Origin: a virus | Length of the DNA stretch: 33,440 nucleotides | IMG/VR virus record: IMGVR_UViG_3300045988_163839 | Reading direction: 5' to 3' (one strand) | Part shown: positions 29,152 to 32,413 of the stretch, one piece after another | Position numbering within the stretch: the first letter of the stretch is position 1 | How the letters are laid out: each line of letters opens with the position of its first letter | Position numbers and translations under genes: made by a program | The notes under the pieces: generated by a model | Told to the model about the DNA's origin: nothing | The model's database searches: none | What the model saw: the letters and a program-made list of their open reading frames with translations, nothing else

Positions 29152-30567
29152 TTATTTTTTGAGCCGTAAATTTACTGTGATTCTGCTGCCGTCAACTATG
29201 ATATTTTTGATAAGATATTCTAGCAACGTGCGCTTTTGTCGCCGGTTGAGTATACTGTATTCTGCAATAGACTTTTTAATCGCTTCAGCGTTAGTCGGCG
29301 CGGACTGTACGGATTCAGTTTCTTTTTCTATCAGATTTTGCAGCTCCGCAATTTTAGAATCGTATTCGATTTTTCTTATAAGAAAAGTATCTTTATCAAT
29401 ATCGCCGGAAAGATACAGGTCAAGCAGTTTGCTTTGCGAGCGTTTTATCGCGCCTATTTCGCTCATCATTTTGTCTATGAGGCCGGGGGAGAAGTCGGCT
29501 TTGTTGTAATCGTCAATATTCAGATTGAGTACGTAATCCTCGACGATTTTTTCCAGCTCCTCGGCGCGGTAAATATCATTGTCGCATTTTGCCGGGTGAT
29601 AATTTTTATCGCGCTTAAGTCTGGCCGCGCAACCGTAATCCCGGTAACGGTAATGCTTGGTGTGCGTACCGTCCGGCTTTTTAGTGTAACGCTCATACAT
29701 TTTGCCGACGTATCGGTTTCCGCACCTTCCGCAAATCAGAAGTCCGGTTAAAAGATAGGGCGAGCTGTCCGAAAGCCGTTTAGTACGGTTTCTGTCAACT
29801 TGCGCCTGCGCCTGGAGAAAAAGCTCGTAAGAAATAATCGCTTCGAAATTAGTCCCTTTTGTGAGTTCTCCGCCGCGGTAACGGAAATAGCCGGCGTACA
29901 GCGGCCTTTCGATTATAGGCTTGCAGCACATTTGATTGTTGAAATATTTAACGTCCGGATAGGCTTCGCGGCAATAATCGTATAGCTTTCTGAAGGTATA
30001 ACCGTGATTAACGTATAAATCGAATATCTTGCGTATAATCTCGGCTTCGGATTCTTCAATGAGGAGACGGTCGTTTTTCTTATCGTGCCGGTATCCGAAA
30101 GGGCAGCGCGTTCCGGGACATGTATATTTGCCTTCTTTGGCTCTTGCGATTTTGCCCATTTCCATGCGCTCTACAATAGTTTCGCGCTCAAGTTCGGCAA
30201 AAGTAGCCATCATTTTTAATGCCGCGCGGCCGAAAGGAGAGGCTAGATCGAAATTTTCCGAAAGCGAATAAAGAGTTACGTTACATTTATCAAAGGTTTC
30301 GACAAGTTCTAATACGTCCTTGACATGGCGTGAAAGACGGTCAAGCTTATATACCAGCACGGTATTTATCTTGCCGTGCTGAATATCGTTCAGCATTCGC
30401 TCCATATTCGGGCGTAATAAATCTTTGCCGGAAAAGCCCTCGTCGGAATACGTATCGACGACAGCATACCCTTGCGCGCTTGCGTAGTGCAGTAATTTAT
30501 CCTTTTGCTCGCCTATGGAATATCCGTCGGTCGCTTGTTCCATCGTGCTTGCGTTAAACGCGAACAT
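29152..30567 (-). CDS. Large serine recombinase (integrase) body. The in-frame N-terminus lacks the Y-x-R of the catalytic YxRxS motif, so the gene is probably disrupted
   Basis: Resolvase-domain motifs STMEQATDGYSIGEQ, VLVYKLDRLSRH and FAELERE, a recombinase domain, a Cys-rich zinc ribbon and a C-terminal coiled coil. The ORF begins MFAFNAST instead of ..IYxRVST. Confidence 0.85.
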   Translation of the reverse strand: MFAFNASTMEQATDGYSIGEQKDKLLHYASAQGYAVVDTYSDEGFSGKDLLRPNMERMLNDIQHGKINTVLVYKLDRLSRHVKDVLELVETFDKCNVTLYSLSENFDLASPFGRAALKMMATFAELERETIVERMEMGKIARAKEGKYTCPGTRCPFGYRHDKKNDRLLIEESEAEIIRKIFDLYVNHGYTFRKLYDYCREAYPDVKYFNNQMCCKPIIERPLYAGYFRYRGGELTKGTNFEAIISYELFLQAQAQVDRNRTKRLSDSSPYLLTGLLICGRCGNRYVGKMYERYTKKPDGTHTKHYRYRDYGCAARLKRDKNYHPAKCDNDIYRAEELEKIVEDYVLNLNIDDYNKADFSPGLIDKMMSEIGAIKRSQSKLLDLYLSGDIDKDTFLIRKIEYDSKIAELQNLIEKETESVQSAPTNAEAIKKSIAEYSILNRRQKRTLLEYLIKNIIVDGSRITVNLRLKK

Positions 30568-30592
30568 AGAGTGCGGCTCTAATGTTCGACAT
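30554..30592 (-). pseudogene. Out-of-frame canonical N-terminus of the serine recombinase (MSNIRAALYVRV*)
   Basis: RBS AAGGAGGTGA plus an ATG at 30592. The TAA at 30556-30554 lies within 7 extra nt (TAACGCA, 30556-30550) relative to paralog 32390-32349 and the family consensus. Confidence 0.75.
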
Positions 30593-31370
30593 AGGGCATC
30601 ACCTCCTTTTTGTGGCGCAACATTGTAGCGTAGCAGTTAACACATAAGCCATTGCCTTTATGTTTAACTGTAGTTGAACCACAGTTAATGCAACATTCAT
30701 ATTTTTTACTCCATGCCCCATTTAAAACATTTATATGTTTTTTTTCTCGTATTGTATCATGTAAAGCCGCATGTTCATTATTTGTCATGAGTTGCAAATT
30801 TTCTATGCGATTATCAGTTTTAATTTCATTTTTATGGTGGACGATTTCATTAGGCAATAAATATCGTCCGATATGTTTTTCCATAACTAAAATATGTTCG
30901 TAAACATATTTCCTTGATTTGGCTCTTGGGTGTTCTGGGCAATAAACTTCTATGTAGCCATTATTACACACATGCTTACCGCCCTGCCATCGTGGGTGAC
31001 GTTCCTTTTGTGTAGCTATGGATTTAGCAAAGGCTGTTTCTCGTAAAGGAATATTATATCGCTTAAAATATTTTCTTAAAGCTTTAGCGCATACATTTAA
31101 CCTTCTACCTATTTCGTTTAACGATAATTCACTGTTGATATATAAATCAGTTATATAATTTTTGAAATCATCATCAGACATATTTTGCTTAGTTTTATTG
31201 GCAATGCGCTCATTGTGATTTGTTGATATGCCATAGGATTGCAAAATTTTACTTGCAGTAATAGTTGATTTTATACCGAGGATAGGACACATTTCCCTTA
31301 AAGTTCTATTCTCCTCAATATAAAGTTGATGTAATTCGTCTTTAGAAAATTTACACTCTTTTTTTTGCAT
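30579..31370 (-). CDS. HNH homing-type endonuclease with N-terminal HTH repeats and a C-terminal zinc ribbon (263 aa)
   Basis: EHILVMEKHIGRYLLPNEIVHHKNEIKTDNRIENLQLMTNNEHAALH (HNH_3-like) and CINCG...CVNC. The gene is AT-rich. Confidence 0.85.
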   Translation of the reverse strand: MQKKECKFSKDELHQLYIEENRTLREMCPILGIKSTITASKILQSYGISTNHNERIANKTKQNMSDDDFKNYITDLYINSELSLNEIGRRLNVCAKALRKYFKRYNIPLRETAFAKSIATQKERHPRWQGGKHVCNNGYIEVYCPEHPRAKSRKYVYEHILVMEKHIGRYLLPNEIVHHKNEIKTDNRIENLQLMTNNEHAALHDTIREKKHINVLNGAWSKKYECCINCGSTTVKHKGNGLCVNCYATMLRHKKEVMPYVEH

Positions 31371-31379
31371 AGCGTTACC

Positions 31380-31592
31380 TTATATTTTTGTACCGTCGGT
31401 GGCGACAAAATACGCCTCGAAAGATACGCCCAAAGCGGCGGCTATTTGCTCGAGGTCGGCGGTGGAAAAGTTATCTGTGTGCATTTTCTTGTTGAGAGTT
31501 TGCGGTGTTACACCCAACCGCCTTGCAAGTTCCGCCTCTGATATGTTGCCGCAATCTACAAGCAAGTGCTTAATTCGATTTGCAAATTTCAT
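31380..31592 (-). CDS. XRE-family HTH regulator (70 aa), switch C
   Basis: HTH motif ISEAELARRLGVTPQTLNKKMHTDNFSTADLEQIAAALGV. Divergent from P_C. Confidence 0.85.
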   Translation of the reverse strand: MKFANRIKHLLVDCGNISEAELARRLGVTPQTLNKKMHTDNFSTADLEQIAAALGVSFEAYFVATDGTKI

Positions 31593-31622
31593 TTTTTAAT
31601 CTCCCATTATAATGATAAAAAT

Positions 31623-31651
31623 ATTATAAGCTATCTTGCTTATAATGTCAA
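31623..31651 (-). promoter_or_regulatory. Promoter of the switch-C regulator with an 8-N6-8 palindrome
   Basis: Minus strand reads TTGACA (31651-31646), 17 nt, TATAAT (31628-31623). The palindrome TTATAAGC-TATCTT-GCTTATAA spans 31624-31645. Confidence 0.65.
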
Positions 31652-31702
31652 TAGAAAATACTAAAATTTCAAAAATATTTTTATAAAATAGCAGCAAAAT
31701 GG

Positions 31703-31731
31703 TTGACAACATCAGCCAAATAGATTATAAT
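31703..31731 (+). promoter_or_regulatory. Rightward early promoter P_C
   Basis: TTGACA (31703-31708), 17 nt, TATAAT (31726-31731). Confidence 0.7.
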
Positions 31732-31802
31732 AAAGATACAATCAAGGTTGACAAGCGACCGAGATTGAATAAAAAGGCAAGCAAAAAGGAGGTAGAGTCC
31801 AA

Positions 31803-31949
31803 ATGAATGTTGAGCAAATGGAGGCAAACGGAATGACGAATGCGCAACTAAACGCATTGCTTGAAACGATAGCAAGACGGATAGAAGCAGAAGCACAGAA
31901 CGCCGCTGAAGCCGCTCAAATAGTCAGGGAAGCTAAGGCGGAAGGCTAA
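31803..31949 (+). CDS. Leader small ORF of the P_C transcript (48 aa, Ala/Glu-rich helix)
   Basis: RBS AAGGAGG. Follows the AGGCAAGC leader motif (31775-31782). Confidence 0.45.
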   Translation: MNVEQMEANGMTNAQLNALLETIARRIEAEAQNAAEAAQIVREAKAEG

Positions 31950-31956
31950 AAGGGAA

Positions 31957-32043
31957 GCCGCTCGGTTGAAAGTCCACTAAACCAAAACCGAACGGCGCCA
32001 AGAGGGCAGAGGGGTAACGCTTGCCGCCCCTCTGACACCCTCT
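31957..32043 (+). ncRNA. Double-hairpin RNA element, copy C (variant loop specificity)
   Basis: Hairpin 1 spans 31957-31967 / 31986-31996 (10 of 11 bp). Hairpin 2 is CAGAGGGG (32007-32014) / CCCCTCTG (32027-32034). Loop GCTTGCC (32019-32025) is complementary to GGCAAGC at 31776-31782. Confidence 0.55.
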
Positions 32044-32051
32044 GATTATAC

Positions 32052-32210
32052 GACAGGCAGGTAAAAAAGTCAAATAAATTGGAGGATTTAAAAAATGGAT
32101 TTAGGAATACGCACAGAGGAAGCAAAAGAGACGCATGTATTAGAGAAAACAGAAAATAACGCGGAGTTTTTATATTATTTTATCGCGGCGTTATTGCAGG
32201 AAATGCCTTA
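32052..32210 (+). repeat. 159-bp direct repeat, partner of 2826-2984
   Basis: Two mismatches over 159 nt by manual alignment. Confidence 0.9.
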
Positions 32211-32313
32211 CGAAGCAGGCGAAAAGTTGTTAGACATTGTAGAAAATTATTTGGCTCCCGTTACGGAGGTTAAAAGTGAAAGAGTTTTACGAGTAAATAC
32301 TTTTGCTGTGTGA
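32095..32313 (+). CDS. Small ORF-c (72 aa), full-length member of the FLYYFIAALL family
   Basis: RBS GGAGGA. MDLGIRTEEAKETHVLEKTENNAEFLYYFIAALLQEMPYEAGEKLLDIVENYLAPVTEVKSERVLRVNTFAV. Confidence 0.6.
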   Translation: MDLGIRTEEAKETHVLEKTENNAEFLYYFIAALLQEMPYEAGEKLLDIVENYLAPVTEVKSERVLRVNTFAV

Positions 32314-32324
32314 AAAATACGGCG

Positions 32325-32413
32325 TTACGTTATCGGAAAAATTACTGCCGTGCTGACTCTGACGTAGATAGCTGCTTTGATATTCGACATAAGGCATTAC
32401 CCTCTTTTTGTGG
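32325..32413 (-). pseudogene. Orphan 5' fragment of a serine recombinase gene (RBS + MSNIKAAIYVRVST, then unrelated sequence and a stop)
   Basis: About 65 nt are homologous to 30544-30615 (roughly three-quarters identical, mostly synonymous differences). The canonical catalytic motif IYVRVST is intact here. Confidence 0.75.

What the first reader, a model, noticed from the sequence alone, without database searches (positions are those of the whole stretch)
30544..32413. About 1.8-kb cassette (HNH endonuclease + XRE switch C + RNA module + ORF-c) flanked by two diverged copies of the recombinase 5' end
Seen: 30544-30615 and 32349-32413 are direct repeats on the minus strand. Each comprises RBS + MSNI[RK]AA[LI]YVRV..ST. 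Roughly three-quarters of nucleotides are identical with mostly synonymous differences, so they derive from two different but related recombinase genes. The distal copy has the intact catalytic motif but loses homology right after AGCACG (Ser-Thr). The proximal copy carries the 7-nt disruption just before the same AGCACG. The intervening DNA contains an AT-rich HNH homing-type endonuclease gene directly upstream of the recombinase, and the complete switch C. This looks like a cassette inserted into, or recombined at, the first 14 codons of the integrase gene, with the hexamer AGCACG as the junction. A deletion joining the two AGCACG copies would recreate an intact gene. This could be a scar of HNH-driven or illegitimate module exchange, or a reversible on/off arrangement for the integrase.
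Basis: partly seen in the sequence, partly recalled or inferred. Interest (0 to 1): 0.62.

Follow-up and report, generated by a model that had tools for sequence, protein, structure and literature searches.

The report
Endonuclease cassette splitting a phage integrase
A gut phage's integrase gene carries a fixed 1.8-kb insertion brought in with a homing-endonuclease gene, and the 7 extra bases at its catalytic site are a conserved endonuclease-linked "coding gap" that ribosomes probably have to skip, a short natural relative of the phage T4 gene 60 bypass.

Summary
Two copies of RBS plus integrase 5' end (78% identical, 1.8 kb apart) flank HNH, XRE, an RNA module and ORF-c. The distal copy stops after AGCACG. 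The proximal copy has 7 extra nt (TAACGCA) before AGCACG.

The reversible on/off reading is not supported. At least six other assemblies carry the same block and the same junctions, and no deletion form was found.

Three results change the picture:
- **The 7 nt are not a junction scar.** HNH-linked serine-integrase genes in at least 8 lineages, down to 50% HNH identity, carry a 4-7 nt insertion exactly between the Arg-Val and Ser-Thr codons. Six-nt alleles read GTT-TAG-GTT or GTC-TAA-GTC. Integrase bodies stay open under strong purifying selection. Gap-bearing phages occur in both attP and attR forms. I read this as a homing-endonuclease plus coding-gap cassette needing translational bypass, like T4 mobA/gene 60 (about 55%).
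- **The distal copy is the resident integrase's dead stub**, probably from a one-sided homing event.
- **The window is a 33,355-bp circle with an inverted lysogeny module**, produced by integrase recombination between attP and a pseudo-attB in ORF-c1.

Main rival: the gaps are repair scars and the integrase is dead (about 25%).

The parts
29152..30549 (-). Body of the large serine integrase, from the catalytic Ser-Thr codons (AGC ACG, 30549-30544) to the stop; 465 codons, open
   Evidence: Pfam Resolvase 1e-37, Recombinase and Zn_ribbon_recom. It is 98.8% identical to the intact integrase of G001. dN/dS is 0.07 against G001 and L049.
30550..30556 (-). 7-nt coding gap TAACGCA between the Arg-Val and Ser-Thr codons. 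The stop TAA directly follows the Val codon
   Evidence: The gap is identical in L056 and L112-L121. TAACGCC sits at the same place in L061. Gaps of 4-6 nt sit at the same place in 8 other HNH-linked integrase loci.
30557..30615 (-). Proximal integrase 5' end: RBS AAAGGAGGTGA, ATG at 30592, and 12 codons MSNIRAALYVRV. It contains a predicted stem-loop (30587-30562) that ends at the Arg codon
   Evidence: The helix has 9 pairs, is 100% paired in 7 gap alleles, and shows 2 compensatory pairs in this allele. Upstream MFE is -12.3 kcal/mol, against a mean of -3.9 in intact alleles.
30579..31370 (-). Free-standing HNH endonuclease gene (263 aa). Its last codons overlap the integrase RBS and start
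   Evidence: Pfam HNH_3 1e-12 and PHROG HNH endonuclease families. Homologues down to 50% identity all lie directly upstream of serine recombinase genes.
31380..31592 (-). XRE-type repressor (70 aa), first gene of the XRE-HNH-integrase operon
   Evidence: Pfam HTH_26 and HTH_3 and PHROG repressor families. It is syntenic with HNH and the integrase in L061, L055 and L122.
31803..32313 (+). Divergent arm of switch C: 48-aa ORF (31803-31949), RNA module (about 31950-32094) and full-length ORF-c2 (32095-32313)
   Evidence: ORF list. The stretch 32026-32210 is 96% identical to 2803-2984. The stretch 32202-32289 is 83% complementary to 28936-29023. There is no Rfam or Pfam match.
32314..32348 (-). 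35-nt stretch between the ORF-c2 stop and the distal AGCACG. It forms the illegitimate left junction of the insertion
   Evidence: Homology with every integrase allele ends at 32349. The junction is identical in six other contigs.
32349..32413 (-). Distal copy: RBS plus the first 14 codons (MSNIKAAIYVRVST) of the resident integrase, now a dead 21-codon stub (ORF 32390-32325)
   Evidence: It is 88% identical to the G001 integrase 5' end. It lies where cassette-less relatives start their integrase gene.
28990..29045 (-). Hybrid site J2: left half of attP joined at core TTA (29017-29015) to the 3' half of ORF-c1
   Evidence: Three-way comparison in phages with the identical HNH protein: attP ..GTAACGCT TTA AATGTTAAC.., attR ..TTA CTGTCAGGCGCAGG.. 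(host), and here ..TTA CGAAGCAGGCGAAA...
2955..3010 (+). Hybrid site J1: 5' half of ORF-c1 (a 38-aa truncated ORF, 2869-2985) joined at core TTA (2982-2984) to the right half of attP
   Evidence: ORF-c1 is intact (68 aa) in G001 and in the integrated form L112.

Best explanation
The window is a complete circular temperate phage of gut Christensenellaceae.

**The block.** The 1.8-kb block (30550-32348) is a fixed insertion that arrived together with a free-standing HNH homing-endonuclease gene. It brought an immunity module (XRE70, a 48-aa ORF, an RNA module and ORF-c2). It also brought the endonuclease's own integrase 5' end: RBS, 12 codons and a 7-nt coding gap. The resident integrase was broken about 6 nt past the Arg-Val/Ser-Thr junction. 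One end was repaired by copying the donor. The other end (...GTC AGC ACG) was joined illegitimately and survives as the dead distal stub. This history is inferred.

**The 7 nt.** The 7 nt are not damage from that event. They belong to a conserved class of 4-7 nt insertions placed exactly between the catalytic Arg-Val and Ser-Thr codons of HNH-linked serine integrases. I infer two things about them. At the DNA level the gap destroys the endonuclease's own target and so protects the carrier genome. At the RNA level the ribosome must skip it. The peptidyl-tRNA-Val would take off at GUU next to the UAA stop, helped by a stem-loop just upstream, and decoding would resume at AGC to give the canonical YVRVST enzyme at low yield.

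**What is shown and what is not.** Shown: the anatomy, the conservation, the link with HNH, the selection on the integrase body, and the existence of attP, attR and inverted forms. Not shown: cleavage by the HNH enzyme and bypass at the protein level.
For: **Fixed insertion.**
- L056 is 99.5% identical over window 32391-29015.
- The distal junction is identical in L112-L115, L117 and L056.
- Cassette-less relatives start their integrase at the position of the distal stub.

**Gap alleles at the same codon boundary.**
- 7 nt: TAACGCA (window family) and TAACGCC (L061).
- 6 nt: TAAGTC (L049, L057), TAAGTT (L122) and TAGGTT (L107, L126, L127).
- 5 nt: CTCTA (L140), CTGCA (L146) and TAGCA (L147).
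- 4 nt: CGAA (L144).
- Sources.
- All are pure insertions. The flanking R-V and S-T codons are never damaged.
- In the 6-nt alleles the two Val codons match: GTT/GTT and GTC/GTC.
- The Ser codon varies across both codon boxes (AGC, AGT, TCA, TCG).

**Link with HNH.** Counting independent lineages: HNH with gap 8, HNH with intact integrase 4, no HNH with gap 1, no HNH with intact integrase 14 (Fisher p=0.0016).

**Selection on the integrase.**
- All gap-bearing bodies are open for 457-465 codons.
- dN/dS is 0.04-0.15 with saturated dS, including between lineages that share the same gap.
- HNH identity tracks integrase identity (r=0.81).

**Recombination states.** Two gap-bearing families occur both as attP circles and as attR prophages at the same host gene. 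The window family also occurs inverted.

**RNA structure.** A stem-loop ends at the Arg codon in gap alleles and not in intact ones.

**Co-conversion.** Two SNPs 15 and 17 nt 3' of the gap co-segregate with it.

**Precedent.** The T4 MobA plus bypass cassette protects against self-cleavage (bioRxiv 10.1101/2022.08.31.505936). Stop-hops with matched codons have been shown in constructs (PMC5009743).
Against: - The window's own 7-nt allele has no matched landing codon. GCA precedes AGC and the take-off codon is GTT, so the hop model fits it worse than it fits the 6-nt alleles.
- Variable gap length (4-7 nt), and motifs such as T-AGCA-AGCA, could also be repair scars at a staggered cut.
- Four HNH-linked integrases are uninterrupted (L055, L142, L148, L149).
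- Intact, 99%-identical integrases (the G001 type) occur in the same metagenome as a gap-bearing relative (L049). They could supply integrase in trans.
- The stem-loop has weak thermodynamic z-scores (-0.8 to -2.6).
- A prospective check of the stem-loop on four new loci did not separate gap alleles from intact ones.
- The compensatory changes come from a single lineage.
- There is no protein-level, cleavage or read-level evidence.
Confidence: 0.55

Rival explanations
1. The 4-7 nt insertions are error-prone repair scars at the HNH cut site. They make the carrier resistant to its own endonuclease but kill the integrase. Gap-bearing phages then integrate, excise or invert only with integrase supplied in trans by related co-resident phages. 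The cassette persists by repeatedly homing into fresh intact integrase genes.
For: - Gap length and sequence vary.
- Several gaps look like partial duplications of the following AGCA (L147, T-AGCA-AGCA).
- The window's 7-nt allele lacks a matched landing codon.
- Each integrase subclade holds both intact and gap alleles, as expected for repeated invasion.
- Intact 99%-identical integrases co-occur in one metagenome.
Against: - The scars would have to be insertions only and never touch the flanking codons, in about 6 independent events.
- The same gap is shared by lineages whose HNH and integrase have both diverged 12-17% in protein with saturated dS. Yet all integrase bodies remain open with dN/dS around 0.05.
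- The matched Val codons covary (GTT/GTT against GTC/GTC).
- The stub keeps its synonymous sites and its stem-loop.
Confidence: 0.25
2. The block arrived by ordinary illegitimate or homeologous recombination between two co-infecting related phages. The HNH enzyme played no role. The HNH gene is simply cargo.
For: - The lysogeny region is highly mosaic. A second 1.3-kb block (1467-2802) is likewise flanked by 83%-identical direct repeats of the RNA module.
- Cargo differs between relatives: Panacea, DUF3800-like and others.
Against: - The recipient's break lies 6 nt from the exact site where HNH-linked genes carry their gap.
- The insertion ends with the HNH gene plus its own stub and gap.
- Short co-conversion SNPs flank the gap.
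Confidence: 0.3
3. This is a reversible on/off switch. Deletion between the two AGCACG hexamers restores an intact integrase, and re-insertion turns it off.
For: In silico, joining the two AGCACG copies gives an intact MSNIKAAIYVRVSTMEQ reading frame.
Against: - A 6-bp repeat is not a known substrate of any recombinase encoded here.
- All assemblies with this HNH protein keep the block and the same junctions.
- No contig in IMG/VR or the metagenome scan joins the distal 5' end to the integrase body.
- The gap occurs without any distal copy in L061 and others.
Confidence: 0.03
4. The gap is decoded by frameshifting or readthrough rather than by a hop. This would give an integrase with 1-2 extra residues between Arg-Val and Ser-Thr: RV-NA-ST here by +1 at GUU UAA C, and RV-x-V-ST in the 6-nt alleles.
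For: - The +1 frame reads AAC GCA (window) and AAC GCC (L061), the same two residues with a synonymous change.
- A stop in the A site is a classical +1 stimulator.
- CUC UAA in L140 offers a +2 re-pairing on CUA.
Against: - Y-x-R-x-S spacing is invariant in serine recombinases (general knowledge).
- The different gap types would add different numbers of residues.
- GUU to UUU re-pairing is poor, and there is no Shine-Dalgarno-like stimulator.
Confidence: 0.1

Closest known systems
Phage T4 mobA / gene 60 mobile cassette: HNH homing endonuclease plus a 50-nt translational bypass element in the topoisomerase gene (Bonocora et al. 2011, from my own knowledge; Manning and Atkins 2022, bioRxiv 10.1101/2022.08.31.505936)
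   Same: - A free-standing HNH endonuclease gene lies next to an essential-motif region of its target gene.
- An untranslated insert is found with the endonuclease, and sometimes after its loss.
- A stop or hungry codon directly follows the take-off codon.
- Take-off and landing codons match in some alleles.
- An RNA stem-loop lies 5' of the take-off site.
- The element appears and disappears among close relatives.
   Different: - The target is a large serine integrase, at its catalytic Arg-Val/Ser-Thr codons, not a topoisomerase.
- The gap is 4-7 nt, not 50 nt.
- There is no split into two ORFs with added tails.
- There is no sequence homology to the gene 60 cassette.
- The window's allele lacks a matched landing codon.
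- Neither bypass nor cleavage has been shown.
Synthetic 'stop-hops' in E. coli: matched codons flanking a stop, 9 nt read as one amino acid (Weiss 1987 and O'Connor 1989, as reviewed in PMC5009743)
   Same: The 6-nt alleles read GUU UAG GUU or GUC UAA GUC. This is exactly the matched-codon, stop-flanked arrangement, and it also involves valine.
   Different: - Those were reporter constructs with about 1% efficiency.
- The review states that no natural in-frame stop-hop is known.
- Here the arrangement is conserved in natural genes under selection.
Free-standing homing endonucleases with co-conversion of flanking markers (T4 I-TevIII/SegG/MobE type; from my own knowledge)
   Same: - An AT-rich HNH gene is inserted directly upstream of its presumed target.
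- Flanking sequence travels with it: the 5' stub, the gap and 2 SNPs.
- Distribution among 99%-identical integrase genes is patchy.
   Different: The event in this window was one-sided. It left a duplicated target 5' end and carried 1 kb of immunity genes along.
Serine-integrase recombination at pseudo-attB sites (phiC31/Bxb1-type large serine recombinases; from my own knowledge)
   Same: The inversion junctions fall exactly at the attP core (TTA). The partner site shares the core and short flanking motifs with the true attB.
   Different: The recombination is intramolecular. It lies within the phage's own early gene and gives a stable inverted genome that was assembled from several samples.

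Membership tests
Homing endonuclease + translational bypass cassette (T4 mobA/gene 60 kind) | Free-standing HNH endonuclease gene adjacent to the interrupted target gene | tested here: met
   HNH_3 1.1e-12 and PHROG HNH families. The gene is directly upstream of, and overlapping, the integrase start here and in 11 other lineages.
Homing endonuclease + translational bypass cassette (T4 mobA/gene 60 kind) | Short untranslated insert inside a conserved coding motif, absent from endonuclease-less relatives | tested here: met
   A 4-7 nt insert lies between the R-V and S-T codons in 8 of 12 HNH-linked lineages and in 1 of 15 HNH-less lineages.
Homing endonuclease + translational bypass cassette (T4 mobA/gene 60 kind) | Stop or slow codon immediately 3' of the take-off codon | tested here: met
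   The window reads GTT TAA. TAA or TAG directly follows Val in the 7-nt alleles, the 6-nt alleles and L147. L140 reads CTC TAA. L144 has CGA and L146 has CTG with no nearby stop.
Homing endonuclease + translational bypass cassette (T4 mobA/gene 60 kind) | Matched take-off and landing codons | tested here: not met
   In the window allele the take-off codon is GTT and the triplet before AGC is GCA. This feature is met only in the 6-nt alleles: GTT/GTT in L107, L122, L126 and L127, and GTC/GTC in L049 and L057.
Homing endonuclease + translational bypass cassette (T4 mobA/gene 60 kind) | Stimulatory mRNA structure at or 5' of the take-off site | tested here: inconclusive
   A 9-bp helix ending at the Arg codon is 100% paired in 7 alleles, with 2 compensatory pairs. 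MFE is -9.9 in gap alleles and -3.9 kcal/mol in intact ones, p=3e-5, but the alleles are not independent. A prospective check on 4 new loci was not discriminating.
Homing endonuclease + translational bypass cassette (T4 mobA/gene 60 kind) | Full-length protein made across the gap; endonuclease cuts gap-less targets and the gap protects | not testable with these tools
   This needs reporter or mass-spectrometry assays and cleavage assays. The indirect evidence is open bodies, dN/dS of 0.04-0.15, and attP plus attR forms of gap-bearing phages.
Large serine recombinase (phage integrase) | Resolvase catalytic domain + Recombinase domain + zinc ribbon | tested here: met
   PF00239 1e-37, PF07508 5e-9 and PF13408 1e-10.
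Large serine recombinase (phage integrase) | Contiguous Y-x-R-x-S-T catalytic motif in one reading frame | tested here: not met
   The motif is split by TAACGCA. The longest ORF starts MFAFNAST and lacks Tyr and Arg. It is intact in G001, L048, L054 and L055.
Large serine recombinase (phage integrase) | attP next to the gene, recombining with attB at a short common core | tested here: met
   attP, attR, uninterrupted attB and the inverted hybrid all share the core TTA(C) at the same position.
Programmed DNA inversion switch (Hin/Gin/Cin type) or reversible excision switch | Paired dedicated recombination sites flanking the segment, with both states in one population | tested here: not met
   The cassette is flanked only by a 6-bp repeat and no deletion form was found. 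The large inversion uses attP and a pseudo-attB, not paired invertase sites.
prfB-type programmed +1 frameshift | Slippery CUU U before a stop, plus an upstream Shine-Dalgarno-like stimulator | tested here: not met
   The site is CGC GUU UAA C. Re-pairing of tRNA-Val on UUU is poor and there is no SD-like element 3 nt upstream. A +1 shift would give RVNAST.

The most novel reading that the evidence does not exclude
HNH-linked serine integrase genes of gut Firmicutes phages carry a natural, conserved 4-7 nt coding gap at the catalytic Arg-Val/Ser-Thr junction that is skipped by ribosomes. This includes the first natural matched-codon stop-hops (GUU UAG GUU). It would be a second, independent and much shorter case of the homing-endonuclease plus translational-bypass mobile cassette so far known only from T4 gene 60. 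It would also throttle integrase synthesis.
Probability: 0.5. Interest if true: 0.88.

Novelty: new variant of a known kind. Interest (0 to 1): 0.72.

Why it matters
Programmed translational bypass has rested essentially on one bacterial-virus example (T4 gene 60) plus yeast mitochondria. A major review states that no natural in-frame stop-hop is known.

Here there is a family of short gaps in at least 8 lineages, with natural sequence variants of 4, 5, 6 and 7 nt, with or without a stop, and with or without a matched landing codon. That would give a compact, directly testable system for three questions:
- how ribosomes hop short distances;
- how homing endonucleases protect their own genomes without killing the target gene;
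- how such a gap might set integrase dosage in temperate phages.

There is also a practical consequence. Gene callers annotate these integrases as N-terminally truncated proteins (471, 444 or 413 aa), so they are misread as defective in prophage surveys and in searches for serine-integrase tools.

The inversion shows that a serine integrase can rearrange its own phage at a pseudo-attB and still leave a genome that persists in several samples.

Tried and rejected
- **Public phage records.** A distant blastn of 28700-33440 matched only a 100-nt HNH stretch of a Staphylococcus phage.
- **The window's own assembly.** It is not held. The nearest record, G001, was used instead.
- **IMG/VR search with the HNH protein.** It returned only relatives of 59% identity or less, and none close over the full length.
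- **IMG/VR pattern scan for CGNGTNTAACGCNAGCAC.** It gave 43 hits. All were chance matches and none lay in a recombinase.
- **A second stub pattern.** It found only the L107 family and L049.
- **Rfam.** No family matched in the whole window.
- **tRNA scan.** No tRNA gene was found, so there is no phage suppressor tRNA to read the stop.
- **PDB sequence search with the HNH protein.** No match.
- **Reads.** Heterogeneity of the gap, of the 1.8-kb block and of the inversion within a sample could not be examined.
- **Records behind L112, L113 and L107.** They are not held, so attL of the integrated form was not recovered.
- **The weak inverted repeat I2 (29075-29115 / 32401-32441).** I considered it as a site and dropped it. 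It is not colinear with I1 and overlaps a CRISPR-repeat-like sequence noted by earlier readers.
- **An assembly artefact as the cause of the inversion.** Rejected. The breakpoints fall exactly on the attP core, and the same circle was assembled three times with different overlaps of 85, 127 and 55 nt.
- **Re-initiation after the stop.** Rejected. There is no start codon in the Ser-Thr frame in L061 or in the 6-nt alleles.

Full report
**1. The observation**

On the minus strand, 30615-30544 and 32413-32349 are direct repeats. They are 79% identical over the ungapped 52 nt and share 51 of 65 positions when a 7-nt gap is allowed. Both hold a strong RBS, an ATG and the start of a large serine recombinase.

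The proximal copy reads MSNIRAALYVRV, then TAACGCA (whose TAA is a stop), then AGC ACG ATG GAA (STME) in the +1 frame. The long ORF (29152-30567) has Resolvase, Recombinase and Zn_ribbon_recom domains.

The distal copy reads MSNIKAAIYVRVST and then leaves all homology.

Between the two copies lie:
- an HNH_3 endonuclease gene whose last codons overlap the integrase RBS and start;
- an XRE repressor;
- a divergent 48-aa ORF;
- an RNA module;
- ORF-c2.

**2. What the window is**

Positions 1-85 equal positions 33356-33440, so the window is a 33,355-bp circle. It has Sak, HNHc_6, terminase-to-tail and lysis genes on the minus strand. It is a complete temperate phage.

Phages with the identical HNH protein were assembled from many human-gut samples. 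Some are integrated next to an NMT1-family ABC-transporter gene. A species genome of the same family as a Christensenellaceae MAG carries that flank at 100% identity.

**3. Relatives with and without the block**

| Relatives | Arrangement |
|---|---|
| G001, L054 | Intact integrase (MSIIKAALYVRVSTMEQ), 98.8% identical to the window's integrase body. The identity stops exactly at AGCACG. No HNH, no block. |
| L048 | Also intact. |
| L049, L057 | No HNH and no block, but CGC GTC TAA GTC AGC ACG. |
| L055 | XRE70-HNH directly upstream of an intact integrase. |
| L056 (another sample) | 99.5% identical to window 32391-29015. It has both 5' copies, the same block and the same 7 nt. |

The distal junction (AGCACG/GCAGTAAT...) is identical in L056, L112-L115 and L117. 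No contig joins a distal-type 5' end to the integrase body.

In cassette-less relatives the integrase starts where the distal stub lies, downstream of the XRE129 module and variable cargo.

The block is therefore a single, fixed insertion at codon 14 of a resident integrase.

**4. The 7 nt are a conserved feature, not a scar of this event**

L061 is a prophage in a Christensenellaceae MAG. Its integrase is only 67% identical and its HNH 66% identical to the window's. It has no distal stub. It reads CGC GTC TAA CGCC AGC ACA, again 7 nt at the same place.

Homologues of the HNH protein were traced to their contigs. Every one lies directly upstream of a serine recombinase gene.

| Locus | Sequence at the boundary | Gap |
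|---|---|---|
| L107 family | CGT GTT TAG GTT TCG ACT | 6 nt |
| L122 | GTT TAA GTT TCA ACG | 6 nt |
| L126 | GTT TAG GTT AGC ACT | 6 nt |
| L127 | GTT TAG GTT AGT ACG | 6 nt |
| L140 | GTC CTCTA AGC ACA | 5 nt |
| L146 | GTC CTGCA AGC ACG | 5 nt |
| L147 | GTT TAGCA AGC ACA | 5 nt |
| L144 | GTC CGAA AGC ACT | 4 nt |
| L142, L148, L149, L055 | intact | none |

Ten related integrases without HNH, from an order-level sample of 401 genomes, are all intact.

Counting lineages gives HNH with gap 8, HNH intact 4, no HNH with gap 1 and no HNH intact 14 (Fisher p=0.0016).

All gaps are pure insertions. The flanking Arg-Val and Ser-Thr codons are always preserved. The Ser codon changes between codon boxes, which shows that the downstream frame is read as protein.

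**5. Are the interrupted genes alive?**

- All gap-bearing bodies are open for 457-465 codons.
- dN/dS is 0.04-0.15 with saturated dS. This includes L107, L126 and L127, which share the same gap and stub.
- HNH identity tracks integrase identity across pairs (r=0.81). The exception is window against L055.
- This argues for long co-inheritance of HNH, gap and integrase rather than a recent hit in each lineage.
- Two gap-bearing families exist both as attP circles and as attR prophages at the same host gene. The window family also exists in an inverted form.
- No start codon in the Ser-Thr frame is available in L061 or in the 6-nt alleles. No suppressor tRNA is encoded.

**6. Likely mechanism**

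The 6-nt alleles have identical Val codons on both sides of a stop: GTT/GTT in four loci and GTC/GTC in L049 and L057. This is the stop-hop layout, in which 9 nt specify one residue. It is known from constructs, and a major review says no natural in-frame case is known (PMC5009743).

A 9-bp stem-loop covers stub codons 2-10 and ends at the first base of the Arg codon.
- It is fully paired in 7 alleles.
- The window allele keeps it through two double changes that alter two amino acids: AGT/ACT becomes AAC/GTT.
- Unrelated stubs (L140, L144) also fold into a hairpin ending there.
- For the 45 nt upstream of the Val codon, MFE averages -9.9 kcal/mol in 9 gap alleles and -3.9 in 16 intact ones.
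- Caveats: the alleles are not independent, individual z-scores are weak, and four later loci did not separate cleanly.

The closest known system is T4 mobA/gene 60. There the bypass insert protects against the neighbouring HNH endonuclease. It has a stop after the take-off codon, matched codons and a 5' stem-loop (bioRxiv 10.1101/2022.08.31.505936).

I therefore propose two functions for the gap. It destroys the HNH target in the carrier genome. It is then skipped by the ribosome, restoring YVRVST at low yield.

For the window's own 7-nt allele the landing triplet is GCA, not GTT. A local GCGU/ACGC hairpin holds the stop in its loop. This allele fits the hop model less well and remains unresolved.

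**7. Origin of the block**

The recipient's sequence ends 6 nt past the gap site (GTC AGC ACG). The insert ends with HNH, stub and gap. Two SNPs 15 and 17 nt 3' of the gap co-segregate with it in otherwise 99%-identical bodies.

The simplest history is a homing event. The integrase-body side was repaired by homology with the donor. The other end was captured illegitimately 35 nt beyond ORF-c2. This duplicated the 5' end and carried an immunity module along. The history is inferred. Ordinary illegitimate recombination between co-infecting phages remains possible, and a second block (1467-2802) is also flanked by diverged repeats.

**8. A different rearrangement made by the integrase**

Relative to G001, L048, L049, L056 and L115-L120, the whole lysogeny segment (29018..33355/1..2981) is inverted.

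In phages with the identical HNH protein, the sequence after the integrase takes one of three forms:
- attP: ..GTAACGCT TTA AATGTTAAC..
- attR: ..TTA CTGTCAGGCGCAGG.., which is host sequence
- in the window, L114 and L116: ..TTA CGAAGCAGGCGAAA.., which is the 3' half of ORF-c1

The 5' half of ORF-c1 is fused to the right half of attP at 2982-2984. ORF-c1 is intact in G001 and in the integrated form.

Uninterrupted attB in related species reads ..GGCCCGGAAGCCACGAT TTAC TGTCAGGCGCAGGG... It shares only the core and short motifs with the ORF-c1 site.

This is integrase-mediated attP x pseudo-attB inversion. It destroys attP and places the early genes downstream of the XRE70-HNH-integrase operon. 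The inverted circle was assembled in at least two other runs.

**9. Verdict**

The cassette itself is a fixed mosaic insertion and not a switch. The interest lies in what it carries: an endonuclease-linked coding gap at the catalytic site of a serine integrase, conserved across distant lineages. It is best explained as a short natural translational bypass (about 55%). The main rival is that the gaps are cleavage-repair scars in dead genes rescued in trans (about 25%).

Noticed in passing
window 2955-3010 and 28990-29045 (segment 29018..33355/1..2981): The whole lysogeny module is inverted relative to all canonical relatives. The cause is recombination between attP (just 3' of the integrase) and a pseudo-attB inside ORF-c1. 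ORF-c1 is split into a 38-aa 5' piece and a 3' fragment. The same inverted circle occurs in ERZ919747 and ERZ28595179.
   Followed up: yes
window 1-85 and 33356-33440: The ends are a 100% identical 85-nt terminal overlap. The window is a complete 33,355-bp circular genome.
   Followed up: yes
window 1467-2802: A second block is absent from G001. It holds XRE67, an 86-aa ORF, a mini-CRISPR region and XRE74. It is flanked by 83%-identical direct copies of the RNA module (1361-1447 / 2762-2847), the same 'insertion between diverged repeats' layout as the finding.
   Followed up: partly
L055:1586-1640 (ODLN01009716.1): Here an HNH gene (321 aa, with a duplicated HTH module) lies upstream of an uninterrupted integrase. 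That integrase has a 3-nt deletion just after the catalytic motif (STMEQ-IDGY). This may be another way to escape the endonuclease.
   Followed up: partly
All gap alleles (window 30562-30560; L049, L061, L107, L122, L126, L127, L140, L144, L146, L147): The catalytic Arg codon is CGC or CGT in all 11 gap alleles. Many intact alleles use AGA or AGG instead. With AGC ACG downstream, this makes Arg-Val pair with Ser-Thr around the gap (clearest in L146: CCGUG...CACGG).
   Followed up: partly
L006/L007 (G001) 1-93 and 35981-36073: The nearest virus record ends in a 93-nt inverted terminal repeat that falls in the RNA module. This looks like a fold-back at the contig break rather than true termini.
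   Followed up: partly
window 32413-32448; L049:4942-5000: A CRISPR-repeat-like sequence (GTTTGAGAGCC..TTACTCTTAAAC) lies just upstream of the RBS of the distal stub. It also lies upstream of the integrase in HNH-less relatives. It is part of the ancestral integrase leader.
   Followed up: no
G004:C6:2603-3262 (genome of L062): A second, partial integrase copy (residues 257-476, 65% identity) carrying an internal TAG lies 3.5 kb from the full integrase gene.
   Followed up: no
L150 (G480:C49, contig end): The species-representative genome whose NMT1 flank is 100% identical to the integrated form also ends in an attR junction with the G001-type core (CGCTA TA CTGTCAGG). That genome is itself lysogenic.
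   Followed up: no
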